From Escherichia phage DaisyDussoix: a stretch of DNA of 64,000 bases. Below, piece by piece: positions 29,139-39,521 of the stretch. The translations under genes were made by a program, and so were the position numbers. The notes beneath the pieces were generated by a model. The model worked only from the letters and a program-made list of their open reading frames with translations, was not told where the DNA came from and searched no databases. Position 1 is the first letter of the stretch, and each line of letters starts with the position of its first letter. Where the stretch lies: sequence record MZ501058, one strand, 5' to 3'.

Positions 29139-29977
29139 TGCAACAATACTTAAAAATTTTGACAGATGTAATTTTACTAGGTGAACCCCGTAATGACCGT
29201 ACAGGAACAGGCACAGTTTCAATTTTTGATTCCTATGCTAAGTTCGACCTACGTGAAGGATTCCCGGCTGTAACTACTAAACGCCTGGCCTGGAAATCAG
29301 TAGTAGGAGAACTTTTGTGGTTCTTGTCTGGTTCCACAAATCTTCATGATCTACGTGTATTCACATTTGGTCGTGACGAAGGACAGTGGACCATCTGGAC
29401 TCCAAATTATGAAGACCAAGCTATAAGTATGGGGTATGATAAGGGTAATCTAGGACCAGTATATGGTAAACAGTGGCGTAACTTTGGTGGGCGAGATCAG
29501 ATCCTAGAACTTATTGAAGGAATCAAGAATAATCCTCATGGCCGCAGACATCTAGTTTCTGCGTGGAACGTAGCTGAACTTGATAAAATGGCATTACCAC
29601 CCTGTCATTATGGTTTTCAGTGTTACGTAAGTAATGATGGATACCTAGATCTTAAATGGACACAACGCTCTGTGGATTGTTTCCTCGGTTTACCTTTCAA
29701 TATTGCTAGTTATGCTTTATTAACGCATATATTAGCAAAACTGACAGGATTAAAACCTCGTTATCTTATCTTTAGTGGTGGTGATACTCATATCTATAAT
29801 GACCACATGGAACAGGTAGAAGAACAGGTAAAACGCAAGCCACGCCCTCTGCCAACTCTAGTAATGCCAGAGTTTGTAGATCTTTACGATTTATTAGAAA
29901 ATAATACAGCAGCTTGGTCGTTCCATTTAGAGGGGTACGATCCTCATCCAGCTCTTAAAGCTAAAATGTCCTCTTAA
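29138..29977 (+). CDS. thyA: thymidylate synthase
   Basis: PPCHYGFQCYV active-site motif. Confidence 0.9.
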   Translation: MQQYLKILTDVILLGEPRNDRTGTGTVSIFDSYAKFDLREGFPAVTTKRLAWKSVVGELLWFLSGSTNLHDLRVFTFGRDEGQWTIWTPNYEDQAISMGYDKGNLGPVYGKQWRNFGGRDQILELIEGIKNNPHGRRHLVSAWNVAELDKMALPPCHYGFQCYVSNDGYLDLKWTQRSVDCFLGLPFNIASYALLTHILAKLTGLKPRYLIFSGGDTHIYNDHMEQVEEQVKRKPRPLPTLVMPEFVDLYDLLENNTAAWSFHLEGYDPHPALKAKMSS

Positions 29978-29982
29978 CTTAA

Positions 29983-30008
29983 ATAGCCCTTCGGGGCTAT
30001 TATATTTA
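29983..30008 (+). terminator. intrinsic terminator (UUCG tetraloop)
   Basis: UAGCCC-UUCG-GGGCUA + UUAUAUUU. Confidence 0.55.
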
Positions 30009-30050
30009 AAATTTCATTTGCTTATTTAGTGAAATTTTAAATATAATATA
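30008..30050 (+). promoter_or_regulatory. T5-type sigma70 promoter
   Basis: AAAATTTCATTTGCTT-N18-TATAAT. Confidence 0.5.
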
Positions 30051-30078
30051 CTAAATCAACCAATATGGACAAACAAGA

Positions 30079-30465
30079 ATGAGCAAAGATATAGAATTAG
30101 AACACGCCCTGCATAATTATACCTCTTACTTGGAGGGTAATGAAGTAAAAGAATTAACTAAGGAACAAATCCTACTAATTCTAGATTCTCTAGTTTTAAA
30201 GTTTAAAAAACTAGAGGAATACTACTCCGTAGGTAATGGGGATGAAAGAGTAGAACTATCTCTAAGTCTTCTAGAAGACATGGGGTGGGATGAAGATGAC
30301 CAAGTAGGGTACTTGGGGATTTCTGTAGAAATCTTAGAAAACACAGAACATGAAGATATTTTAGAAGTGAAAAGTAGAACAGCTATTCGTTATGGTACTT
30401 ATGGAAGTGGAATAACTGGATTAAAAGCGCTTCTTAGTATGGATCTAGGGTGGTTGGATGAGTAA
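30079..30465 (+). CDS. hypothetical acidic protein
   Basis: ORF track 128 aa. Confidence 0.45.
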   Translation: MSKDIELEHALHNYTSYLEGNEVKELTKEQILLILDSLVLKFKKLEEYYSVGNGDERVELSLSLLEDMGWDEDDQVGYLGISVEILENTEHEDILEVKSRTAIRYGTYGSGITGLKALLSMDLGWLDE

Positions 30466-31003
30466 ACAACCGACACTAGAGAGATTAAAAGAACTTCTAA
30501 ATTATGATCCTGATACCGGAATATTTACTAATAAAATAAGTAGAGGTAAGGGAGGTAAAGCCGGAGCAGTTGCTGGTTATTTAAGAAAAGATGGTTATAT
30601 AACTATAAAAATAGATAAAGTAGATTATCTAGCCCATAGACTGGCATTCCTGTATATGACAGGGAGTATTCCTGACTTAGTAGATCATATAAATCGTATA
30701 CGGTCAGATAATAGATGGAAAAATTTAAGAGAATCTACTAGTCAAATTAATAATAGAAACTGCACTGCCTCTAGCAAATCAGGGTACTTAGGGGTACATT
30801 GGAATAAGCAACTACAAAAGTGGCAAGTACAGATAATAAACTGTGAGGGTAAGAATATTTATGGTGGAATATTCGAATATCTAGACTTAGAGAACGCCGT
30901 ATTAAAAGCAAATATCTTGAGACACGAGTTACATGGTAAAGATGCTGTAGAAGAAATATTTTATAATAACTATTATCCCACATTAGAGGAACTTAATAGA
31001 TGA
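30458..31003 (+). CDS. HNH homing endonuclease (AP2-domain type)
   Basis: 181 aa; YLAHRLAFLYMTG...VDHINRIRSDNRWKNL. Confidence 0.8.
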   Translation: MSKQPTLERLKELLNYDPDTGIFTNKISRGKGGKAGAVAGYLRKDGYITIKIDKVDYLAHRLAFLYMTGSIPDLVDHINRIRSDNRWKNLRESTSQINNRNCTASSKSGYLGVHWNKQLQKWQVQIINCEGKNIYGGIFEYLDLENAVLKANILRHELHGKDAVEEIFYNNYYPTLEELNR

Positions 31004-31476
31004 GTACATTTCATATATACACAGATGGTGCTTGTAAGTCTAATCCAGGTCCAGGTGCTTGGGGTTTTATTGTCTATGATGATAACAACGATCGTTTAGG
31101 TTCTAAATCTGGTTATAATCCTAAAACCACAAATAACGAGATGGAACTCACAGCTATTGTAGAAGCTCTACGTTGGTCCGTTAAAAAAGATAATAGACCA
31201 ATTGCTATCTATACTGACTCTGCTTATTGCAAAAATGGCATGGAAAGTTGGATGTTTTCTTGGCAAAGGAAAGGCTGGAAGAAAGCAGATGGTGAAGTTC
31301 CTCTTAATCTAGAACTTTGGCAGGAAGCATTTAAATTAACACAGCAGTATATCAACTTTCATAATACTAACCCTACCTTTATTAAGGTTAAAGGACATTC
31401 TGGTATTAGTGGTAATGAAGCTGTAGATGCACTATGTAATACAGTTATTACTGAGCAAGAACTTGCTGAGATGTGA
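31000..31476 (+). CDS. rnh: ribonuclease H
   Basis: YTDGACKSNPGPGAWG, ELTAIVEAL, YTDSAY, VKGHSGISGNEAVDALC motifs. Confidence 0.8.
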   Translation: MSTFHIYTDGACKSNPGPGAWGFIVYDDNNDRLGSKSGYNPKTTNNEMELTAIVEALRWSVKKDNRPIAIYTDSAYCKNGMESWMFSWQRKGWKKADGEVPLNLELWQEAFKLTQQYINFHNTNPTFIKVKGHSGISGNEAVDALCNTVITEQELAEM

Positions 31477-31486
31477 TAAATAAATT

Positions 31487-31530
31487 AAAAATTTTCTTGC
31501 TTAAAGCCCCCTAATTTAGTATAATATTCG
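31487..31530 (+). promoter_or_regulatory. T5-type sigma70 promoter
   Basis: AAAAATTTTCTTGCTT-N17-TATAAT. Confidence 0.55.
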
Positions 31531-31552
31531 TATTGAAAGTGAGGAGGGCTTT

Positions 31553-31831
31553 ATGCGAATTTACAACTCAAATTCATTAGGATTTAAACCTTTGAGAAAA
31601 CTCGCACAACCTCCGCGTCAGATCAGAAAGGCAAATATTGGTGAGCCAGAAACTAGGCTTCCACCACCTCCGGAGCAACGTCTAGTTTACCTAGACGAAG
31701 AATTAGCCGAAAGGGAACGCAAAGCTCAAGAAGAAATTGAGCGCAAGAAACTGTGTACTGCTCCAGCGTATAATAAAGGAGCGTATCAATATGTCTCAGA
31801 TGCCGAACAAGCTAAGATGGTTGGTAGATAA
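31553..31831 (+). CDS. hypothetical protein
   Basis: GAGGAGGG RBS; 92 aa. Confidence 0.45.
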   Translation: MRIYNSNSLGFKPLRKLAQPPRQIRKANIGEPETRLPPPPEQRLVYLDEELAERERKAQEEIERKKLCTAPAYNKGAYQYVSDAEQAKMVGR

Positions 31832-31837
31832 TTTTTA

Positions 31838-31880
31838 AAAAATTCATTTGCTAAACGCTTCAAATTCTCGTATAATATAC
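31838..31880 (+). promoter_or_regulatory. T5-type sigma70 promoter
   Basis: AAAAATTCATTTGCTA-N17-TATAAT. Confidence 0.6.
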
Positions 31881-31914
31881 TTCATAAATTGATAAACAAA
31901 AAGGAAAACAAATA

Positions 31915-32430
31915 ATGGCTAAGCAGAAAAACGCAAAAACTCAAGCAGCTCCGGCAGTTAAAACTTTCCCGCAGACCGAGGCTAATCGCAAAGCTCGTCT
32001 GGAACGCCACCTGCGTAAGCATCCTACCGATGCTCAGGCTGCGCAAGCACTGAATAATCCGGCTCCGATTCGTAAGAAGCCTAAAGCTAAAAATGCCACC
32101 CGTAAATCCTACAAAATGGTTATGTATGTAGAAAATTACGGCCACAAATCTGTCCCAGTTTCCATGAGCTTCAACGCTGGGGCTGAATTATTCTCTCGTA
32201 ATGGTATGTCTATGAAAGACTATGAGAAGGCAGTTAACCAGAAGCGTAAACCAACAGCAGATGTATTGCGTGATACTCGTGGACAGTTTGGTTCTGTTAA
32301 GCCAAATATCTTTGGCGTAGAGTATAGTAAAGATAATGTTCGTGCTCTGTGTTACGGTGTAGGCATTAAGTTCACGGGTGATTCTGCTCGTAAATCTGCT
32401 AAACCAGCTCGCAAGCGTAAAGCGAAGTAA
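31915..32430 (+). CDS. hypothetical basic protein
   Basis: 171 aa, Lys/Arg-rich termini. Confidence 0.5.
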   Translation: MAKQKNAKTQAAPAVKTFPQTEANRKARLERHLRKHPTDAQAAQALNNPAPIRKKPKAKNATRKSYKMVMYVENYGHKSVPVSMSFNAGAELFSRNGMSMKDYEKAVNQKRKPTADVLRDTRGQFGSVKPNIFGVEYSKDNVRALCYGVGIKFTGDSARKSAKPARKRKAK

Positions 32431-32437
32431 TAGATAA

Positions 32438-32456
32438 ATAGGGGCAGAAGCCCCTA
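32438..32456 (+). other. stable GC hairpin (GGGGC-AGAA-GCCCC), weak terminator or processing site
   Basis: hairpin without clear U-tract. Confidence 0.35.
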
Positions 32457-32493
32457 CAATCTACTAATTCTCTAACTAATCAAGGATATTTTT

Positions 32494-32709
32494 ATGTTCT
32501 CTAAGAAACCACGTTCCGTTACTGAAATCGTTGCTTCCTTTACCACTATCACTGATGAGCTTCAAGCTCGTATTGAGGCTGATCAAAAAATTGCTGCGGA
32601 TATTCAGAAACAGCAGGAAGAACTCGCTTTAAAGTTGGCTGAAACCAACAAGAGCGAAAAATCTGCCCAAACTATTATGGAAAATATCCTTAAACTGCTG
32701 GGCAAGTGA
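32494..32709 (+). CDS. hypothetical small protein
   Basis: ORF track 71 aa. Confidence 0.45.
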   Translation: MFSKKPRSVTEIVASFTTITDELQARIEADQKIAADIQKQQEELALKLAETNKSEKSAQTIMENILKLLGK

Positions 32710-32717
32710 TTTAAATC

Positions 32718-32742
32718 AGGGGGCGAAAGCCCCTCTTATTTG
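32718..32742 (+). terminator. intrinsic terminator-like hairpin (GNRA loop)
   Basis: GGGGC-GAAA-GCCCC + UCUUAUUU. Confidence 0.45.
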
Positions 32743-32750
32743 GAGAAACT

Positions 32751-32987
32751 ATGCGTAATTTTGTAGCAAAGAATGATTTTAACCGTGCTAGCACCCATAA
32801 GTCAGCTAGGGATTATACACGACTTTCTAGTCATGAAGTAATGGATACCTGTTATGAAGAGCTGGAAGGTAGCTGGAATGACTGGCCCGACTTCTCTATG
32901 GAAGAGAACTGGGATGTCAGTGAGGATATGCTTCCTGGTTTTAAAGACCCCAAGAAGTGGGAGTCTATTAAAGAGACAGCTCTTTAA
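32751..32987 (+). CDS. hypothetical small protein
   Basis: ORF track 78 aa. Confidence 0.45.
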   Translation: MRNFVAKNDFNRASTHKSARDYTRLSSHEVMDTCYEELEGSWNDWPDFSMEENWDVSEDMLPGFKDPKKWESIKETAL

Positions 32988-33015
32988 TAGTTTTCTACAC
33001 AATAAAGGATAAGTT

Positions 33016-33717
33016 ATGAAAGTAAAACCATTTGGTATGCTAGATATTGAATCTCTAGGAACTCCAGGAGATTGTGGTACTACTCATATCGCAATGCCTT
33101 CTTTCGCTTTTGTGGCTATGCATGGGATTGATAAAGACCCTGACTTAGTATTTGCTACTTTGGATGTGCAGGATCAGCTTAATTCTGGTGCCAAAGTTAC
33201 AGCATCTACTCTAGCATTCTGGATGGATCAAGCTAAAAATAGCCCGTCTGCTATCCACATTATGGAAGCCATGAAGGAACGTAATCCAAAACTGATTGCC
33301 TTCCAAAATGGTAAACATCATTGCACTAATAAATTAGGCTCAAACTATGCTGCCTTCTCTATGTCTCAAAATATTATGGAGTTGGCTCTAGGTGAAAATG
33401 CTTTGTATTATGGCAATGGCCCAGAGTTTGATATGACTATCTACTCTGCAAACACGTTCCATGCTGGAACCAATGAAGAGGTAGTTCCGTGGAAATTCTG
33501 GAATTTGGGCAATGTTCGATCTCTTCGTAATCTCTGGATGCAAGCTGGATACAGTTATAAGGCTCTAGAGACCGAAGGTATTAGCTGGGCAATAGCTAAA
33601 ATGGAGAAGATGGACACTATTCGTTATGGGATCTATCCGGTTAAGCATGATCCTGCATTTGATGCCTTAGTTGAAAGCTATTGTGTTGCAGCTATGATCG
33701 AAAAAATGAAAATTTGA
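33016..33717 (+). CDS. DEDD-type 3'-5' exonuclease-like protein (T4 DexA-like, tentative)
   Basis: N-terminal LDIESLG (DxE) and C-terminal KHDPAFDA (H..D) signatures. Confidence 0.45.
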   Translation: MKVKPFGMLDIESLGTPGDCGTTHIAMPSFAFVAMHGIDKDPDLVFATLDVQDQLNSGAKVTASTLAFWMDQAKNSPSAIHIMEAMKERNPKLIAFQNGKHHCTNKLGSNYAAFSMSQNIMELALGENALYYGNGPEFDMTIYSANTFHAGTNEEVVPWKFWNLGNVRSLRNLWMQAGYSYKALETEGISWAIAKMEKMDTIRYGIYPVKHDPAFDALVESYCVAAMIEKMKI

Positions 33718-33752
33718 TTTGCTTCCGGCCCCAAAATTCTGTATAATATATT
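33709..33752 (+). promoter_or_regulatory. T5-type sigma70 promoter
   Basis: AAAATTTGATTTGCTT-N17-TATAAT. Confidence 0.55.
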
Positions 33753-33787
33753 CATAAATTTGAGAAAACAATAAAAGGAAAACATAT

Positions 33788-33970
33788 ATGCCAGTATCTA
33801 AAAATGTTCGTAAAAATGGTAAGAAAGCTACTCGTAATCTGGGTATCCGTCGTATGGCTGAACGTCAATCAGGTATCCAGAAAATCTTTGATCTGCTAAA
33901 TCGTGCTAATCCTAAAATTGATAACAGTAATGATACTGTTCTACGCACTCTGCTGGCAATTGGTCTGTAA
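33788..33970 (+). CDS. hypothetical small basic protein
   Basis: AAAAGGAAAA RBS; 60 aa. Confidence 0.4.
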   Translation: MPVSKNVRKNGKKATRNLGIRRMAERQSGIQKIFDLLNRANPKIDNSNDTVLRTLLAIGL

Positions 33971-34023
33971 TAGACCAACTTTAAACAAATTCAAATCTCA
34001 AACTTCATATAAGGAAGCAAATA

Positions 34024-34662
34024 ATGACTACTCGTATTTCTAAAACTCGCGCTCTGGCAACTATCAAATCTCTGGAAGCTAAAATCCGTAAAGCTACTGA
34101 ACAGCAGCTTCTGATCGCTGTTGGTGAAGGTAAGGATAAAAACCAAGTTGTAGTTGGCGCTGCAATCGAAGTAGCTGATCTGTCTACTCGTATTAAGACT
34201 GATTTCCAGTCTCTGCTGGATATGATGTCCCAGCGTGATCGTATCAAAGCTGCTCTGATTAAAAGCAATGCGGAAACAATCGTTGAGATTGGCTCTCGTA
34301 AGATGACTGTTGCGGAAGCAATTGAAGCTAAGCGTTCTATGGAACTTAAAGCCCAACTACTGGCTAACATGCGTAAGCAGTTCCATGCCGCTACGGTTAA
34401 GTTTAATACGCAGAAAGCACAGTTTGATGCTAAATATGAGCGTTTGCAGGATAGCATGGCTACCCGCGATAAGAAAACTTCCGAAGATGAAGTTAAAATG
34501 CAGCTCAACCTGCTGGAACTCAAGAATACTCCATTCTTGATTGATCCGCTGGAACTGGAAAAGCTGATTAAGCAGCATGACGAGGAATATCAGGACTTTG
34601 CAACAAATGTTGACTTTGTTCTGTCCGAGTCTAACGCTTCTACCTTCATTGAAGTAGAGTAA
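34024..34662 (+). CDS. hypothetical coiled-coil protein
   Basis: 212 aa; AAGGAAG RBS; overlapping minus-strand ORFs judged spurious. Confidence 0.5.
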   Translation: MTTRISKTRALATIKSLEAKIRKATEQQLLIAVGEGKDKNQVVVGAAIEVADLSTRIKTDFQSLLDMMSQRDRIKAALIKSNAETIVEIGSRKMTVAEAIEAKRSMELKAQLLANMRKQFHAATVKFNTQKAQFDAKYERLQDSMATRDKKTSEDEVKMQLNLLELKNTPFLIDPLELEKLIKQHDEEYQDFATNVDFVLSESNASTFIEVE

Positions 34663-35035
34663 TAATTTAAAAGCTAGTAAATCGGTAGACGAAAGCCCAA
34701 GCATCTTACCTCGCAGCAGCGGTTGAAATACGAGGTTAAATAAGACCGCTGACCATACTATAAAGTATAATCTATTGGAGATTATGTTTATTACATCAGA
34801 CATTTAATCTGACACGTAAAAACAAAAGGTCGTTGGTAGTACCAACACAACTTCAAAGATCAACGCTCAAGTATGAAAGCTGAAAAGTTAAAAGCACTCA
34901 AACTTCTAACCTTCTAAAGCTAAAAGATGCAAAGTATTCGTTGATGATTCAAACCCTAGATCAAAGGTACATGGCTCATAAGATATGGCCTGTGGCGCCT
35001 CTAGGCTGTTTATCGGTTTACTAGTCTCTCAATTT

Positions 35036-35078
35036 AAAAATGTATTTGCTAATTAGTTTAGTTTTCTATATAATATAT
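35036..35078 (+). promoter_or_regulatory. T5-type sigma70 promoter
   Basis: AAAAATGTATTTGCTA-N17-TATAAT. Confidence 0.55.
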
Positions 35079-35104
35079 TTTTAAATTGATGAGACGAGGC
35101 TATT

Positions 35105-35422
35105 ATGATTTTTCATATTCTTATTGATGATGTTCGTGTCCTGCATGGGATGGATATTATCATTCGAACCCCCGAAGCCGCTATTGAGTTTCTGAATACA
35201 ACCGATACCACCGGACATTTCGTTTATATGGATAACGATCTGGCTGTAGATGGTATGGAAGGTTATCAAATTCTTCGATTACTCCTAGAATTTGGTCAGA
35301 GACCCAAGAAAGTGGTACTAGTAACCTCGAACCCAGTAGCTAAAGAGACCATGCGTAATGATCTCCTAGACGAAGGGTATCAAGAAAGCCCTAATCGTAT
35401 TGAGTACGATTGGCCGGAGTAA
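35105..35422 (+). CDS. receiver (REC)-like domain protein (tentative)
   Basis: HILIDDV ... MDNDL ... VVLVTSNP pattern reminiscent of CheY-like fold. Confidence 0.35.
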   Translation: MIFHILIDDVRVLHGMDIIIRTPEAAIEFLNTTDTTGHFVYMDNDLAVDGMEGYQILRLLLEFGQRPKKVVLVTSNPVAKETMRNDLLDEGYQESPNRIEYDWPE

Positions 35423-35877
35423 ATAAAATGAAGGCAGCTTTGCTTTTAATAGCTGCCCTAACCTATAGCTTCAATAGTCATGCGACCTACGACTCAAAGC
35501 AGATTGATTGCATTGCAAAAAATATCTACTTCGAAGCACGAGGTGAGGGCACTAAAGGAATGATCGCAGTTGCACAGGTTACTAAAAACCGTGTTAACTC
35601 TGGTACTTTTCCTGATTCTTACTGTAAAGTAGTATATCAGTCTAACCAGTTCTCTTGGGTGGCCAAGAGACCAAAAGTTGATAAAACCGATGAGGCTTGG
35701 CAAGTTGCTAAGAATTTAGCTAGAGTGATATACTACGTTGATTTACCACAAGATCCAACACATGGAGCGTTATACTTCCATAGTGGTAAAGATAAACCTT
35801 ACTGGACAAAGAAGTTTAAGAAAACAACGAAGATTCAAGGCCATACGTTCTACAAGCCTGTGGTTAAGAAAACTTAA
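35410..35877 (+). CDS. secreted SleB-like cell-wall hydrolase
   Basis: signal peptide MKAALLLIAALTYSFNSHA; NIYFEARGE...AVAQVTKNR SleB-family motifs. Confidence 0.55.
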   Translation: MAGVNKMKAALLLIAALTYSFNSHATYDSKQIDCIAKNIYFEARGEGTKGMIAVAQVTKNRVNSGTFPDSYCKVVYQSNQFSWVAKRPKVDKTDEAWQVAKNLARVIYYVDLPQDPTHGALYFHSGKDKPYWTKKFKKTTKIQGHTFYKPVVKKT

Positions 35878-35918
35878 AAATTCGATTGCTTAAAGCCTTA
35901 AATTTCTGTATAATACTT
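35876..35918 (+). promoter_or_regulatory. T5-type sigma70 promoter
   Basis: AAAAATTCGATTGCTT-N17-TATAAT. Confidence 0.55.
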
Positions 35919-35945
35919 TCATAAATTAATGAGAGGAAGCGAAAT

Positions 35946-36116
35946 ATGAAATCAGTTGTAATTATTGGTGTTAATACTCGTGGTATCCGTACTACGAAAA
36001 CAGTTAAAACTACTAACGTTGCTGAAATTACTACAAACCCTAAGAAGTTTGATTTCGCCAAAGTCTCAGCAGTTATGACAGAGCAATCTTTTAACCAAGC
36101 ACTGGGGATGAAATAA
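35946..36116 (+). CDS. hypothetical small protein (56 aa; below ORF-track cutoff)
   Basis: GAGAGGAAG RBS, ATG 35946, stop overlaps next start (TAATG). Confidence 0.35.
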   Translation: MKSVVIIGVNTRGIRTTKTVKTTNVAEITTNPKKFDFAKVSAVMTEQSFNQALGMK

Positions 36117-36565
36117 TGGAAGAGAATATTCTAGATGTTTTGCGTAGGGCTTTGCAGGAATCTAAGGTTGATGGTTCTGATAAAGAAGTAGCTAAAAGCT
36201 ACCAGACCATAATCGGAGATCTTCAGCGTGTTGATAAAGACTTCATTACTTCTGAACAGTTTGTATCTTATCTAAAAGCTCAACTGAAAAGCATTAATCA
36301 GACGAAAGCTAAACTTCACGGTCAAGACATTGATAATTATAGCTTGCAGTCTGCTCAGTATGAATATATACTGAACAAATGGTTACAACAGTATCTGCCG
36401 CCTCAGCTTTCTGATTCTGAGATTCGCAAATACTTTGCAGAATTAGTTAAGTTGAACCCTGGGATTACGAAAGGTATGCTGATGAAAGCGATTAAGGAAG
36501 AATTCCCTGGTCGTTATGATGGTGGTATTGCTGCTCAAGTTGCTGGCGAATTCAATAAAAATTGA
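36116..36565 (+). CDS. GatB/YqeY-like domain protein
   Basis: C-terminal WLQQYLPPQLSDSEIRKYFAELVKLNPGITKGMLMKAIKEEFPGRYDG matches YqeY/GatB pattern. Confidence 0.5.
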   Translation: MEENILDVLRRALQESKVDGSDKEVAKSYQTIIGDLQRVDKDFITSEQFVSYLKAQLKSINQTKAKLHGQDIDNYSLQSAQYEYILNKWLQQYLPPQLSDSEIRKYFAELVKLNPGITKGMLMKAIKEEFPGRYDGGIAAQVAGEFNKN

Positions 36566-36600
36566 TTTGCTAAACGCTTCAAAATTCTGTATAATAGATT
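36557..36600 (+). promoter_or_regulatory. T5-type sigma70 promoter driving ORF-free RNA region
   Basis: AAAAATTGATTTGCTA-N17-TATAAT. Confidence 0.55.
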
Positions 36601-37454
36601 CATAAATTAGAGAACAGCGAGCCGATTACGCTGAGTGAGTTTAGTGATTCCTAATAGGATAGCTATCCCACTGAATAGAGTCGGTGAGTTGGAGACTAGT
36701 AAGTACTCTTAGAGAGGCTACGAGCTAACGCTTATTGCTATTGATAGGGAACTGAAAATCTGCGGAAAACTCGGGAGCTGTCCCGAAATCTCGTAAACTC
36801 TTCTCTAGTTTATGTTAGTGGGGTGTCGAACTGACTTATGTGATAACACTGCCGTCCTAGTATAAACGGTAATATCAAACCGTAACTGGTGGAAGATGCA
36901 GGTTCGAATCCTGCGGTCGGAAAGAATCAGATAACTCGGGCTTATACCGGATAAGCATTCGCTGCTGTAGTACATACTATGACGGTTCAGGAGGTACGCC
37001 GCCTGATCAGTATTAGGTTAGAATCGAAACAGCTAAACCACGAGGAAACCTGACGGCCTCAATCAAACTCGGAACTCGGGATCACTGCCTAGTGTGTGCC
37101 CCGTTTAACCTGAGACTAGGCATCCAGCTTCGCATCGAAAATCGGAGGTGCGATTCTAACAGACCGCGTGAATATGAGAGTGGGAAATGCTGACATGAGA
37201 GATGTCACTAATGGTGCCCAATAGTACAGGTAATTCGCGATAATTCCTGTTGAGCGGCAGCAGTAGGCTGGGAGTCATGACCTAAGCCTAACCGAGTTCT
37301 TCACATACGGAGAACATAACCACAAAGTCACCCTGACTTAAACTGGAGGATATTATCTGACGGAAGGGCTGCAGAGCTTAATCTGAGGGGGCTGACCCTA
37401 CCTACCGTCGGGTATCTTTAAGAGCTTTTATAAGAGTTCTTAAAAATACCTAAA
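36601..37454 (+). ncRNA. candidate structured ncRNA / degenerate tRNA region (no ORF of 60 aa or more on either strand)
   Basis: 850 bp ORF-free directly after a strong promoter; tRNA T-arm copy at 36898-36914 without matching acceptor stem. Confidence 0.3.
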
Positions 37455-37529
37455 CGGGGTGTAGTCTAAGGGATAGGCAGGAGTCTTCTAAATTCCTTTA
37501 TGCAGGTTCGAATCCTGTCACCTCGGCCA
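37455..37529 (+). tRNA. tRNA-Arg (anticodon UCU)
   Basis: manual cloverleaf: acceptor CGGGGUG/CACCUCG, anticodon loop CUUCUAA, T-loop UUCGAAU, CCA encoded. Confidence 0.6.
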
Positions 37530-37555
37530 ATTTTATTAACTGCTAGGAAAATAAA

Positions 37556-37756
37556 GTGAAAACACGATATATAGTAAAAGTAGTAGGTGAACATTCACAA
37601 GTAAATACCACCGATGTTACAGCGCTAGCATTTGAAGTAGTCTCCGGTATAGTCATATTTCATAACGGAGATATCAAAGCTCCTGAATTTGCTGTGGATG
37701 CTAGCCTGTTTATTTCTGCAACTAAAGTAACTGTAGTAGCTAACTCTTCTAAATAA
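37556..37756 (+). CDS. hypothetical beta-rich small protein (possible NfeD-like partner of SPFH protein)
   Basis: GTG start with AGGAAA RBS; 66 aa immediately upstream of SPFH gene. Confidence 0.4.
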   Translation: MKTRYIVKVVGEHSQVNTTDVTALAFEVVSGIVIFHNGDIKAPEFAVDASLFISATKVTVVANSSK

Positions 37757-37767
37757 TAAGGAAATAT

Positions 37768-38712
37768 ATGTTTACTAAAAATATGAAAGAACTGACTTCT
37801 GAGCAAAAAGTAATTCGCACTATTAAACGTTGGGGTATTGGTGCTGTAGTTGGTTTAGCAGGTTTAATCCTAGCTTTTAATTCATATACTATTGTTTCTG
37901 ATGGTACGGTTAAAACCCAAACATTTCTTGGTAAAGTAGATCCTAATCCAGTATTACCTGGTTTCCATCTTGTAAACCCATTTGCATCTTTCGATACTTT
38001 TAGTACAAAAGATATTGCTGTAAAATTAGATAAACTTCAGGTTCCTAGCCAGGATAAGTTTAAATCCACTGTTGACCTGACTGTTATGTTGCAGTTTGAC
38101 GGTTCTAAGGCACCGATCAACCGTATTAATGCAGGTACTCAGGATCAGGCTCTAGATAAGTACGTAACTGAAAAATTACTGTCTACTATTCGTGAGTTTG
38201 GTAAGTCTGTACCTAAAGCACAAGATTTATTTGATGCTAAAATTCAGGCTCAATTGCAAACTGCAATTCAACAGGAAGTTGAAGAGTATGCACGCCCTTA
38301 TGGTTACACAGTTAAGCAAGTGTTCCTTCAGGATATTACGTTGCCACCGGTAATCATGGAACAGGTACAAAATACCAAAGTTCGTGAAGAACAGGTTAAT
38401 GCTGCGAAAGCTGAGTTGGCTCGTGTTGAACAAGAAGCACAGCAGAAGGTTAAACAAGCAGAAGCAGATCGTGAAGCTCGTAACAACCAAGCTATTGCAA
38501 ACGAACGTGATGCAGATGCTAAACTGTACGCAGCTAAGAAAGAAGCCGAAGCTAACGCCGCGCTGCAACGTACTATTACTCCTGAGATGATTCGCTGGAA
38601 ACAACTAGAAGTTGAAATGATTCGTGCTCAGAAATATCAAGGTGGTGTACCGCAAACAGTGGTTGGCACTGGTTATGATGGCCAGATGATTATGGATATG
38701 CGTAACAAGTAA
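37768..38712 (+). CDS. SPFH/band-7 (stomatin/prohibitin-like) membrane protein
   Basis: N-terminal TM (WGIGAVVGLAGLILAF), band-7 core, long Ala/Glu/Gln coiled-coil tail. Confidence 0.6.
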   Translation: MFTKNMKELTSEQKVIRTIKRWGIGAVVGLAGLILAFNSYTIVSDGTVKTQTFLGKVDPNPVLPGFHLVNPFASFDTFSTKDIAVKLDKLQVPSQDKFKSTVDLTVMLQFDGSKAPINRINAGTQDQALDKYVTEKLLSTIREFGKSVPKAQDLFDAKIQAQLQTAIQQEVEEYARPYGYTVKQVFLQDITLPPVIMEQVQNTKVREEQVNAAKAELARVEQEAQQKVKQAEADREARNNQAIANERDADAKLYAAKKEAEANAALQRTITPEMIRWKQLEVEMIRAQKYQGGVPQTVVGTGYDGQMIMDMRNK

Positions 38713-38735: not shown

Positions 38736-38770
38736 AAACCCTGTGTTCCCTGGAGAGCGCAGGGTTTTTC
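38736..38770 (+). terminator. intrinsic terminator
   Basis: AACCCUG...CAGGGUU + UUUUCUGU. Confidence 0.55.
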
Positions 38771-39327
38771 TGTATAACGTATTTATAAAATCAACTAGGA
38801 GATCAAATATGAGTGTTGATGAGTTGACCCGGCACCTTCTATCTAGAGGGTTTGATACAGATAAATATCATTGCTGGTTAAGTCCGGAAGGATGGCTAAC
38901 AGTCCCGTTGTATGATTTCTCTGGGATGTTGAGGGGCTATCAGACGTATAATCCTTCTGCTCCAAAAGGTCATGGTAAGTGTCCCTTTGAGGCTAAATAT
39001 TTTACCTACTCTACTACCCAGTGTGTATGGGGACTAGAAACTCTCAATGGAGATGAAAAAGTAGTATTGATTGCTGAATCTGTATTTAAGGCAGTTGCAT
39101 TACATAATGCTGGTTATCCAGCCCTAGCAATGTTGGGTTCTACCCCAGGAAAAGCGTTATTAAAGCAACTGAAATTACTACCTTTTAAATTGGTAGCTGT
39201 CGGGGATAATGATCCTGCGGGTGAAAAATTTGCTAGAAAATTAAACGGCTTTGTTTCTCCTGTAGATGTGGATGAGATGTCTACCGAAAACTTGAAAAAT
39301 TTTCTTGCTATGAAGCTAAATTTCTAA
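38743..39327 (+). CDS. TOPRIM-domain protein (likely start ATG about 38809)
   Basis: VVLIAESVFKAVAL ... LVAVGDNDPAGEKFARKL TOPRIM-like E/DxD pattern. Confidence 0.45.
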   Translation: MFPGERRVFLYNVFIKSTRRSNMSVDELTRHLLSRGFDTDKYHCWLSPEGWLTVPLYDFSGMLRGYQTYNPSAPKGHGKCPFEAKYFTYSTTQCVWGLETLNGDEKVVLIAESVFKAVALHNAGYPALAMLGSTPGKALLKQLKLLPFKLVAVGDNDPAGEKFARKLNGFVSPVDVDEMSTENLKNFLAMKLNF

Positions 39328-39437: not shown

Positions 39438-39444
39438 AATTCTG

Positions 39445-39521
39445 GTTCTCAAGCTCATATGGTATGAGCACCCAGCTCATAACTGGAAGGTACGTAGGTT
39501 CGAATCCTCGGGGAGCCACCA
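39445..39521 (+). tRNA. tRNA with CAU anticodon (Met or Ile-lysidine)
   Basis: acceptor GGUUCUC/GGGAGCC, anticodon loop CUCAUAA; T-stem imperfect. Confidence 0.5.

What the first reader, a model, noticed from the sequence alone, without database searches (positions are those of the whole stretch)
36116..36565. GatB/YqeY-like domain protein encoded at the entrance of the tRNA cluster
The C-terminal 60 residues fit the GatB/YqeY domain pattern (YLPPQLSDSEIR ... GMLMKAIKEEFPGRYDG). That domain is associated with tRNA-dependent amidotransferase and tRNA-related functions, so co-location with the phage tRNA genes suggests a role in tRNA maturation, charging fidelity or protection.
Basis: partly seen in the sequence, partly recalled or inferred. 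Interest (0 to 1): 0.45.

Follow-up and report, generated by a model that had tools for sequence, protein, structure and literature searches.

The report
Phage YqeY-family protein beside tRNA genes
This T5-like phage gene encodes a small non-enzymatic YqeY-family protein, related to the tRNA-docking end of tRNA amidotransferases, that is already catalogued in hundreds of phage genomes (often misnamed) and whose real job is still untested.

The parts
35886..35914 (+). T5-type early promoter-like site (TTGCTT, 17 nt, TG-TATAAT) ahead of the DUF7616-YqeY gene pair
   Evidence: Read from the sequence. It is 38/50 identical to the promoter copy at 36567. T5 annotates 'putative early promoter T5P22' at the equivalent place. 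The generic scan did not list it, because its -35 hexamer matches only 3 of 6.
35946..36116 (+). 56-aa ORF, Pfam DUF7616 / phrog_5077, whose stop overlaps the YqeY start codon (TAATG)
   Evidence: Pfam E=1.7e-33 and PHROG E=8e-41. The overlap is read from the sequence. The same pairing occurs in T5, Spc35, Gostya9, GSW6 and AAS21. It is not bS21.
36116..36565 (+). YqeY-family protein gene (149 aa): N-terminal helical domain about residues 1-93, C-terminal tail domain about residues 94-149
   Evidence: dN/dS 0.06-0.12. The C-terminal tail is the best conserved part (mean majority fraction 0.84, against 0.52-0.67 for the rest).
36567..36595 (+). Second copy of the T5-type promoter (TTGCTA, 17 nt, TG-TATAAT) directly after the stop codon; start of the non-coding RNA and tRNA region
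   Evidence: Promoter scan, 10/12 match. The block is invariant across five T5-like phages. It corresponds to T5 'repeat c copy 3'.
36851..36922 (+). Degenerate tRNA-like element, the first element of the tRNA cluster
   Evidence: Rfam tRNA 29.3 bits (cut-off 29), E=7.8e-4 in a 1-kb search, with two acceptor-stem mismatches. ARAGORN does not call it here but calls the orthologous element tRNA-Ser(ACU) in T5 and Gostya9. The T-arm shows a compensatory change, GCAGG/CCTGC against GTAGG/CCTAC.
37180..37339 (+). Conserved structured non-coding RNA candidate: closing stem GUGG/CCAC around four hairpins, plus a 3' hairpin
   Evidence: RNAalifold on 10 phages. 42 pairs, 97.9% of cells paired against 31-47% in slid controls; 9 pairs with double changes against 0-1; 0/500 shuffles reach the observed values. 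No Rfam hit at E<=10. The block is found in 518 phage records.
37455..37529 (+). tRNA-Arg(TCT), the first canonical tRNA of the 23-tRNA cluster (to 48811)
   Evidence: ARAGORN; Rfam 49.3 bits.
35105..35422 (+). Context gene: 105-aa cREC_REC domain protein (predicted cyclic-phosphate processing, RNA-repair associated), two genes upstream
   Evidence: Pfam PF20274 E=1.1e-14. The domain's predicted role is described in PMC9503650.

Best explanation
The gene encodes a standalone, non-catalytic YqeY-family protein made of two helical domains, equivalent to the helical and tail domains at the C-terminus of GatB. It is the orthologue of T5 ORF076. It is probably expressed early, from a T5-type promoter, together with the translationally coupled DUF7616 ORF. 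Those points are shown or follow directly from the sequence. The mechanism below is inferred. Like the YqeY module of GatB/GatE and of Deinococcus GlnRS, its conserved C-terminal tail (PxQL ... G..M...K....G.YDG) most likely docks on the elbow or D-loop region of a folded tRNA or tRNA-like RNA. In doing so it would act as a weak affinity-enhancing accessory for another translation component, such as an aminoacyl-tRNA synthetase or a processing enzyme, helping the phage's own tRNA set to be used in a host (E. coli) that has no yqeY. It is an accessory, not an essential part of the tRNA cluster. My confidence that it is a YqeY-family member with no amidotransferase or nuclease activity is about 0.95. 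My confidence in the tRNA-accessory mechanism is about 0.35-0.4.
Against: Free YqeY was a very weak tRNA binder and could not act in trans on truncated GlnRS (PMC1865053). The protein is slightly acidic (pI 5.9, net charge -1; only the tail is mildly basic, pI 8.3), which is not typical of an autonomous RNA binder. The GatB-specific Lys-rich KXGKXK motif and its extra helix are absent. Five phage lineages have YqeY with no canonical tRNA within 10 kb, so the adjacency is not statistically compelling (P about 0.08-0.23). A Klebsiella T5-like phage has 25 tRNAs in the 22-kb syntenic stretch with no YqeY there. Vibrio hosts have their own YqeY (structure 8xjg) yet Vibrio phages still encode one, so filling a host gap is not a general explanation. 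No experiment on any phage YqeY was found.
Confidence: 0.4

Rival explanations
1. Ribosome or initiation-linked factor. The phage YqeY acts with the small ribosomal subunit (the bS21 neighbourhood) to bias translation towards phage messages, and its position next to the tRNAs only reflects a shared early 'translation' region.
For: In bacteria yqeY is most often in an operon with rpsU (bS21) and is co-regulated with it (PMC1865053; PMC13374519; PMC12054373). Most phage lineages with YqeY show no tRNA linkage.
Against: The coupled upstream ORF here is DUF7616, not bS21. No bS21-like gene was seen next to YqeY in the eight other phage loci examined. No direct YqeY-ribosome interaction has been published in the papers read.
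Confidence: 0.2
2. Partner of a structured non-coding RNA. The protein binds the conserved structured RNA and/or the atypical tRNA-like element encoded immediately downstream (36851-36922, 37180-37339), forming a small phage ribonucleoprotein.
For: A covariation-supported RNA and a conserved tRNA-like element lie directly after the gene, under their own conserved promoter. There is preliminary published evidence that YqeY binds the large structured OLE RNA (PMC12054373).
Against: Klebsiella T5-like phages keep the 3' part of the non-coding block but mostly lack YqeY: 81 records against 3-11. Phage YqeYs elsewhere are not next to such an RNA. This rival rests on adjacency alone.
Confidence: 0.1
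3. Protein-protein adaptor unrelated to RNA. The helical YqeY scaffold has been recruited to bind a host or phage protein, as Aim41 bridges two domains of yeast complex I.
Against: The most conserved part is the tail that corresponds to the tRNA-docking tail of GatB/GatE. The recurrent tRNA-cluster linkage in two unrelated phage families is not explained.
Confidence: 0.1
4. A genuine tRNA-dependent amidotransferase subunit, as named in RefSeq and PHROGs ('tRNA amidotransferase', 'aspartyl-tRNA amidotransferase subunit B').
For: Only the database names and the real homology of the tail to GatE/GatB tails.
Against: The protein has 149 aa, all of it aligned to standalone YqeY. S. aureus GatB has 475 residues, with the catalytic cradle in residues 1-294 (PMC2811023), and that part is absent here. 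There is no Pfam GatB_Yqey or GatB_N hit. From established knowledge, E. coli and Salmonella charge tRNA-Gln and tRNA-Asn directly with GlnRS and AsnRS and have no GatCAB.
Confidence: 0.01
5. A recombination-related exonuclease, as named in many GenBank records including the closest one (ZBSTP12).
For: Only the annotation strings.
Against: There is no nuclease domain in Pfam, NCBIfam or PHROGs. The fold is an all-helical YqeY. A separate gene annotated 'exonuclease' lies about 2.4 kb upstream in phage 1-19, so the label may have been transferred to the wrong gene.
Confidence: 0.01

Closest known systems
Standalone bacterial YqeY (Pfam PF09424; structures 1ng6 B. subtilis, 8xje C. jejuni, 8xjg V. 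parahaemolyticus)
   Different: Only 12-20% identity to the solved structures. The single sequence scores just under Pfam's cut-off. It is encoded by a lytic phage, next to DUF7616 and a tRNA cluster, instead of the usual rpsU-yqeY operon.
C-terminal helical and tail domains of GatB/GatE (tRNA-dependent amidotransferase)
   Same: The tail domain is homologous: GatE 1zq1 residues 568-626 match query positions 92-143 at E=0.0015. In GatB this tail docks on the tRNA D-loop (PMC2811023).
   Different: No cradle (catalytic) domain. No Lys-rich KXGKXK motif or extra helix alpha-14. No Pfam GatB_Yqey hit. No global structural hit to GatB/GatE. It therefore cannot be an amidotransferase.
YqeY domain appended to Deinococcus radiodurans GlnRS
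   Same: Same family. It is the only YqeY module with a measured function: it raises the affinity of the synthetase for tRNA-Gln (PMC1865053).
   Different: That domain works only in cis, fused to the enzyme. The phage protein is free-standing, and free YqeY bound tRNA very weakly.
Phage orthologues: T5 ORF076 (AAX12013) and phrog_1460, present in about 450-590 phage records
   Same: 100% identical protein in Salmonella phage ZBSTP12 and 48% identity to T5 ORF076. The synteny is the same: cREC-like gene, SleB hydrolase, DUF7616, YqeY, tRNA-like element, tRNA-Arg.
   Different: Nothing of substance. This is the same gene, and only the names given to it differ between records.
Aim41 (mitochondrial GatB/YqeY-superfamily protein; bridging subunit of Pichia complex I)
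   Different: Aim41 is seen as a protein-protein bridge in a respiratory complex (PMC12487887). No such partner is evident for the phage protein.

Membership tests
YqeY family (Pfam PF09424) | Sequence-profile match to the family model | tested here: inconclusive
   The single sequence gives E=1.7e-5 but 25.4 bits against a curated cut-off of 27, and only residues 90-141 match. At family level the case is clear. 18 of 33 orthologues match. The orthologue profile finds proteins of which 54 of 60 are Pfam YqeY. The joint profile hits the three solved YqeYs at 1e-21 to 3e-15 over their full length.
YqeY family (Pfam PF09424) | Two-domain all-helical YqeY fold over the whole protein of about 145 aa | tested here: met
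YqeY family (Pfam PF09424) | Conserved C-terminal motifs (P-x-Q-L; G..M...K....G-x-x-D-G) | tested here: met
   P95, Q97, G120, M123, K127, G132, Y134, D135 and G136 are the columns conserved at 83-97% across the phage and cellular members. The HMMER alignment to 1ng6 pairs 'fpgrydG' with 'VKGKADG'.
YqeY family (Pfam PF09424) | Typical (not defining) operon partner rpsU/bS21 | tested here: not met
   The coupled upstream ORF is DUF7616 (E=1.7e-33), not bS21.
YqeY family (Pfam PF09424) | Biochemical activity (RNA/tRNA binding) | not testable with these tools
   No activity defines the family; standalone YqeY is described as uncharacterised.
GatB/GatE tRNA-dependent amidotransferase subunit | Catalytic cradle domain (S. 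aureus GatB residues 1-294) | tested here: not met
   The protein has 149 aa in total, all of it accounted for by the YqeY fold. There is no Pfam hit to any GatB N-terminal family at E<=10. Domain boundaries are taken from PMC2811023.
GatB/GatE tRNA-dependent amidotransferase subunit | Match to Pfam GatB_Yqey (PF02637), and the GatB Lys-rich KXGKXK motif with helix alpha-14 | tested here: not met
   No PF02637 hit. The loop between helices 100-113 and 119-129 is NPGIT, with no extra helix and no KXGKXK.
GatB/GatE tRNA-dependent amidotransferase subunit | Homologous tail domain | tested here: met
   GatE 1zq1_C residues 568-626 align with profile positions 92-143, E=0.0015.
GatB/GatE tRNA-dependent amidotransferase subunit | Partner subunits GatA/GatC (or GatD) encoded by the phage or host | not tested
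   I did not scan the whole window for GatA, GatC or GatD. From established knowledge, enterobacterial hosts use GlnRS and AsnRS and lack GatCAB.
phrog_1460 (phage protein family labelled 'tRNA amidotransferase') | Full-length profile match | tested here: met
   E=2.8e-46, residues 3-146 against profile positions 1-139 of 140. The family label is a misnomer.
Recombination-related exonuclease (GenBank label) | Any nuclease domain or fold | tested here: not met
   None found in Pfam, NCBIfam or PHROGs, and the structural neighbours are YqeY only.

The most novel reading that the evidence does not exclude
The phage YqeY is a dedicated chaperone or adaptor for the phage's own non-standard RNAs. 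These would be its nuclease-resistant tRNAs, the atypical tRNA-Ser(ACU)-like element, and/or the newly noticed structured RNA at 37180-37339. By gripping the tRNA elbow it would help these RNAs get charged, processed or shielded when host defences (PARIS, retron Eco7, PrrC-type anticodon nucleases) destroy host tRNAs. That would give the first defined function for any standalone YqeY protein.
Probability: 0.12. Interest if true: 0.65.

Novelty: already known. Interest (0 to 1): 0.2.

Why it matters
The gene itself is ordinary. An identical protein is already deposited, and the family has its own PHROG and is annotated in hundreds of T5-like genomes. The practical value lies in annotation. Two widely propagated names, 'tRNA amidotransferase' and 'recombination-related exonuclease', are unsupported and should read 'YqeY-family protein'. 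The scientific value is modest. Standalone YqeY has had no assigned function since the first structure was released in 2003. T5-like phages, growing in an E. coli host that is reported to lack yqeY, offer a clean genetic system for testing what it does, now that phage tRNAs are known to counter tRNA-cleaving defences. The structured non-coding RNA next to the gene may be the more novel object in this stretch.

Tried and rejected
1. The coupled upstream 56-aa ORF might be a phage bS21, mirroring the bacterial rpsU-yqeY operon. Rejected: it is DUF7616 / phrog_5077.
2. DUF7616 plus YqeY might be a general two-gene module. Rejected: DUF7616 accompanies YqeY only in Markadamsvirinae; the small neighbouring ORFs in RSP15, Aeromonas G2, River4, Cassandra, S13 and CcrSwift are unrelated.
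3. The search for related loci with the broad alignment A2 failed because no block was conserved enough. I replaced it with tblastn of distant members against the phage collection.
4. T5 viable deletion mutants might show dispensability. Uninformative: the deletions 29191-32442 and 30661-38625 do not reach ORF076 at about 41.5 kb.
6. Literature searches for the phage protein's function and for a known T5 small RNA at this position found nothing relevant in the held library. Older subscription-journal T5 papers are not searchable here.
7. NCBIfam gave no meaningful hit.
8. Cluster names for the nearest non-T5 relatives were mostly empty; only Proteus phage Stubb ('tRNA amidotransferase') and a JGI 'uncharacterized protein YqeY' cluster carried names.
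9. One fold of T5 coordinates taken from the record's pseudo-tRNA annotation (L002:3617-3689) was off-register and is disregarded. ARAGORN places the element at L002 3548-3621.

Full report
**What the window is.** The stretch 35400-37600 is 99.8% identical to Salmonella phage ZBSTP12 and 98-99.5% identical to many other Epseptimavirus genomes (Demerecviridae, the T5-like phages). 516 phage records match it. ARAGORN finds 23 tRNA genes between 37455 and 48811, all on the + strand. Rfam adds one more at 39444-39518 and a borderline one at 36851-36922.

**Checking the observation.**
- Pfam YqeY (PF09424) matches residues 90-141 at E=1.7e-5, 25.4 bits, just below the curated cut-off of 27. Pfam GatB_Yqey gives no hit.
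- PHROGs gives a full-length match to phrog_1460, E=2.8e-46. NCBIfam gives nothing meaningful.
- The gene is under strong purifying selection: dN/dS 0.06-0.09 against phages 1-19, Spc35 and Gostya9, and 0.12 between Spc35 and Gostya9.
- tblastn finds it in 452 phage records. The ZBSTP12 protein is 100% identical and T5 ORF076 is 48% identical.

**The whole protein is a YqeY, not just its last 60 residues.**
- A profile of 33 T5-like orthologues (A1) has B. subtilis YqeY (1ng6) as its top PDB hit, aligned 8-138 against 6-141, although E is only 0.012.
- The same profile, searched exhaustively against 1.84 billion representatives, finds 807 proteins at E<=0.001. Almost all are 135-155 aa and aligned over their full length.
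- Of 60 sampled hits, 54 are Pfam YqeY, best E=3.5e-27.
- A joint profile (A2) hits the three solved YqeYs at 1.1e-21, 1.5e-18 and 3.4e-15 over their full length. It also hits the tail of GatE (1zq1_C residues 568-626) at E=0.0015, against query positions 92-143.
- An AlphaFold model built on A1 is confident (mean pLDDT 89.6) and all-helical.
- Foldseek's top seven hits are the same family (probability 0.99-1.00), and the eighth has probability 0.41.
- Within T5-like phages the C-terminal tail is the most conserved part (0.84 mean majority fraction, against 0.52-0.67 elsewhere).

**What it is not.** S. aureus GatB has 475 residues. Its catalytic cradle occupies residues 1-294, and only residues 295-475 (helical plus tail domains) belong to the YqeY family (PMC2811023). 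The phage protein is 149 aa and corresponds only to that non-catalytic part. It also lacks the GatB-specific Lys-rich KXGKXK motif and the extra helix. The RefSeq and PHROG label 'tRNA amidotransferase' is therefore a misnomer. The GenBank label 'recombination-related exonuclease', carried by ZBSTP12, STG2, several Bas-collection phages and others, has no support from any domain or fold search. A separate gene annotated 'exonuclease' lies about 2.4 kb upstream in phage 1-19, so the label may have been transferred to the wrong gene.

**Local anatomy.**
- A T5-type promoter-like site with an extended -10 (TTGCTT, 17 nt, TG-TATAAT; 35886-35914) precedes a 56-aa ORF (35946-36116). This ORF is Pfam DUF7616, E=1.7e-33, and its stop codon overlaps the YqeY start codon as TAATG.
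- T5 annotates 'putative early promoter T5P22' at the equivalent position, so early expression is inferred.
- Directly after the YqeY stop codon lies a second copy of the same promoter (36567-36595; 38 of 50 positions identical to the first copy). It is invariant among five T5-like phages.
- No + strand terminator-like site was found between them, so read-through into the RNA region is possible. This is an inference.
- Two genes upstream (35105-35422) is a cREC_REC domain protein, E=1.1e-14. That domain is predicted, not shown, to process cyclic phosphates in phage RNA-repair contexts (PMC9503650).

**Is the position next to the tRNAs meaningful?** I used tblastn with distant family members to find YqeY genes in other large phages (589 records with P0064). 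I then scanned ±10 kb around them with ARAGORN.

Linked to a tRNA cluster:
- All Markadamsvirinae examined: this window, T5, Spc35, Gostya9 and AAS21.
- Vibrio phage River4 (Ermolyevavirinae), where the gene sits inside the cluster between tRNA-Val and tRNA-Trp.
- The unrelated Ralstonia phage RSP15, where it lies about 670 nt after the last of 19 tRNAs.

Not linked:
- Pseudomonas phage Cassandra, Caulobacter phage CcrSwift, Aeromonas phage G2 and Cronobacter phage S13 have no tRNA within 10 kb.
- Sinorhizobium phage phiM12 has only a tRNA-Stop(tta) call (annotated tRNA-TERM) 8 kb away.

Counting Demerecviridae once, that is 2 of 7 independent lineages. If a random gene has a 7-13% chance of lying within 1 kb of the cluster, this outcome has P about 0.08-0.23. 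It is suggestive, not significant.

There is also a natural control. Klebsiella T5-like phage vB_Kpn13-P1 has 25 tRNAs in the syntenic region, but no YqeY is found in a six-frame HMM search of 22 kb, while the positive controls score 1e-30 to 4e-40. In line with this, 81 Klebsiella phage records carry the neighbouring non-coding block but only 3-11 carry YqeY. YqeY is thus an accessory of a T5-type tRNA cluster, not a requirement.

**What is known about YqeY.**
- The GatB/GatE tail docks on the tRNA D-loop, and deleting it abolishes tRNA binding (PMC2811023).
- The YqeY domain fused to Deinococcus GlnRS raises its affinity for tRNA-Gln, but only in cis, and free YqeY binds tRNA very weakly (PMC1865053).
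- In bacteria yqeY usually follows rpsU (bS21) and is co-regulated with it. [quoted passage not shown]
- There is preliminary evidence that YqeY binds the structured OLE RNA (PMC12054373).
- A fungal family member is a bridging subunit of complex I (PMC12487887).
- T5 tRNAs act as nuclease-resistant substitutes when PARIS or retron Eco7 cleave host tRNAs. The viable T5 deletions described there (29191-32442 and 30661-38625) do not reach ORF076 at about 41.5 kb, so its dispensability is unknown (PMC11464382).
- I found no experiment on any phage YqeY.

**Most likely mechanism (inferred).** I think the protein is a non-catalytic accessory. Its conserved tail would recognise the elbow or D-loop of folded tRNA or tRNA-like RNA, assisting another factor in handling the phage tRNA set. 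I put about 0.35-0.4 on this.

Points against it:
- the acidic overall charge (pI 5.9);
- the weak, cis-only behaviour of YqeY in the one biochemical study;
- the inconsistent tRNA linkage across phages;
- the fact that Vibrio phages encode YqeY although a Vibrio host (V. parahaemolyticus) has its own (structure 8xjg).

Rivals: a ribosome- or bS21-linked role (0.2), binding of the adjacent structured RNA (0.1), and a protein-protein adaptor role (0.1). The amidotransferase and exonuclease readings are effectively excluded.

**Novelty and score.** This exact protein is already in GenBank, the family has its own PHROG, and several records already call it a 'YqeY domain-containing protein'. I rate it 'already known', interest 0.2. 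The useful outputs are a corrected name and a clearly stated, testable hypothesis.

**Noticed nearby.** The 889 nt between the gene and tRNA-Arg has no ORF longer than 56 aa and is conserved. It contains two elements.
- An atypical tRNA-like element at 36851-36922. Rfam scores it 29.3 bits. It is degenerate here, but ARAGORN calls the orthologue tRNA-Ser(ACU) in T5 and Gostya9.
- A structured RNA candidate of about 160 nt at 37180-37339. A closing stem GUGG/CCAC encloses four hairpins, followed by a 3' hairpin. In 10 phages, 97.9% of pair cells are standard pairs against 31-47% in slid controls. Nine pairs show double compensatory changes against 0-1 in the controls, and 0 of 500 shuffles reach the observed values. 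It has no Rfam match at E<=10 and is conserved in 518 phage records. I could not find it described in the searchable literature, but older T5 papers are not held, so I cannot claim it is new.

Noticed in passing
window 37180-37339 (+): Conserved structured non-coding RNA candidate between the YqeY gene and tRNA-Arg. A closing stem GUGG/CCAC encloses four hairpins (37191-37207, 37212-37259, 37265-37289, 37296-37315), followed by a 3' hairpin (37325-37339). 9 of 42 pairs show compensatory double changes in 10 phages, 97.9% of cells are paired, and 0/500 shuffles reach the observed values. There is no Rfam family, and the block is present in 518 T5-like phage records. It may be more novel than the finding itself.
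   Followed up: yes
window 36851-36922 (+): Degenerate tRNA-like element 285 nt after the YqeY stop codon (Rfam tRNA 29.3 bits; two acceptor-stem mismatches; not called by ARAGORN). The orthologous element is called tRNA-Ser(ACU) in T5 and Gostya9, annotated as a pseudo-tRNA in T5, and deleted in GSW6.
   Followed up: partly
window 35886-35914 and 36567-36595 (+); also 35046-35074: Repeated T5-type promoter cassettes (TTGCT., 17 nt, TATAAT; the first two have an extended -10 TG and a shared downstream TTCATAAATTA block, 38/50 identical). They bracket the DUF7616-YqeY pair and correspond to T5 'repeat c' and the putative early promoters.
   Followed up: partly
window 39444-39518 (+): An extra tRNA found by Rfam (38.2 bits, above the cut-off of 29) directly after tRNA-Ser(GCT) and missed by ARAGORN. 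The cluster therefore has at least 24 tRNAs.
   Followed up: no
window 35105-35422 (+): 105-aa protein with a cREC_REC domain (PF20274, E=1.1e-14). The domain is predicted to resolve cyclic phosphates in phage RNA-repair and NAD-ADPr systems. It is conserved two genes upstream of YqeY in T5-like phages.
   Followed up: partly
window 35946-36116 (+): 56-aa DUF7616 / phrog_5077 ORF, translationally coupled (TAATG) to the YqeY gene. It is conserved with YqeY across Markadamsvirinae, including AAS21, but not in other phage lineages. Its function is unknown.
   Followed up: partly
window 38743-39327 (+): 194-aa Toprim / primase-like ORF (phrog_849 E=1.4e-62, matching only part of the primase profile) lying between tRNA-Arg and tRNA-Ser inside the tRNA region. 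An SPFH/Band-7 protein gene lies at 37768-38712.
   Followed up: no
window 37412-37449 (+): AT-rich imperfect palindrome (GTATCTTTAAGAGCTTTTATAAGAGTTCTTAAAAATAC) immediately upstream of tRNA-Arg. It is conserved in T5-like and Klebsiella phages and could be a processing or termination hairpin.
   Followed up: no
public records of the same gene (e.g. PP213450 40342-40788; NC_048819 48059-48508): Conflicting names are propagated for this one gene: 'recombination-related exonuclease', 'tRNA amidotransferase', 'aspartyl-tRNA amidotransferase subunit B', 'carbon-nitrogen ligase', 'YqeY domain-containing protein' and 'hypothetical protein'. Only the YqeY name is supported.
   Followed up: partly
L009 9753-10177 (Sinorhizobium phage phiM12): The YqeY homologue is annotated as two adjacent CDS (gp304 'tRNA amidotransferase' and gp303 'YqeY-like protein domain'). 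This suggests a frameshift, a pseudogene or a sequencing error. A putative aminoacyl-tRNA hydrolase and an RNA ligase lie 4.6 and 10 kb downstream.
   Followed up: no
L022 (Klebsiella phage vB_Kpn13-P1, PP848836 62000-84000): A T5-like phage with 25 tRNAs and the same endolysin, ORF-free stretch and tRNA-Arg synteny, but with no YqeY gene in 22 kb. It is a natural 'deletion' that could be used for comparison.
   Followed up: yes
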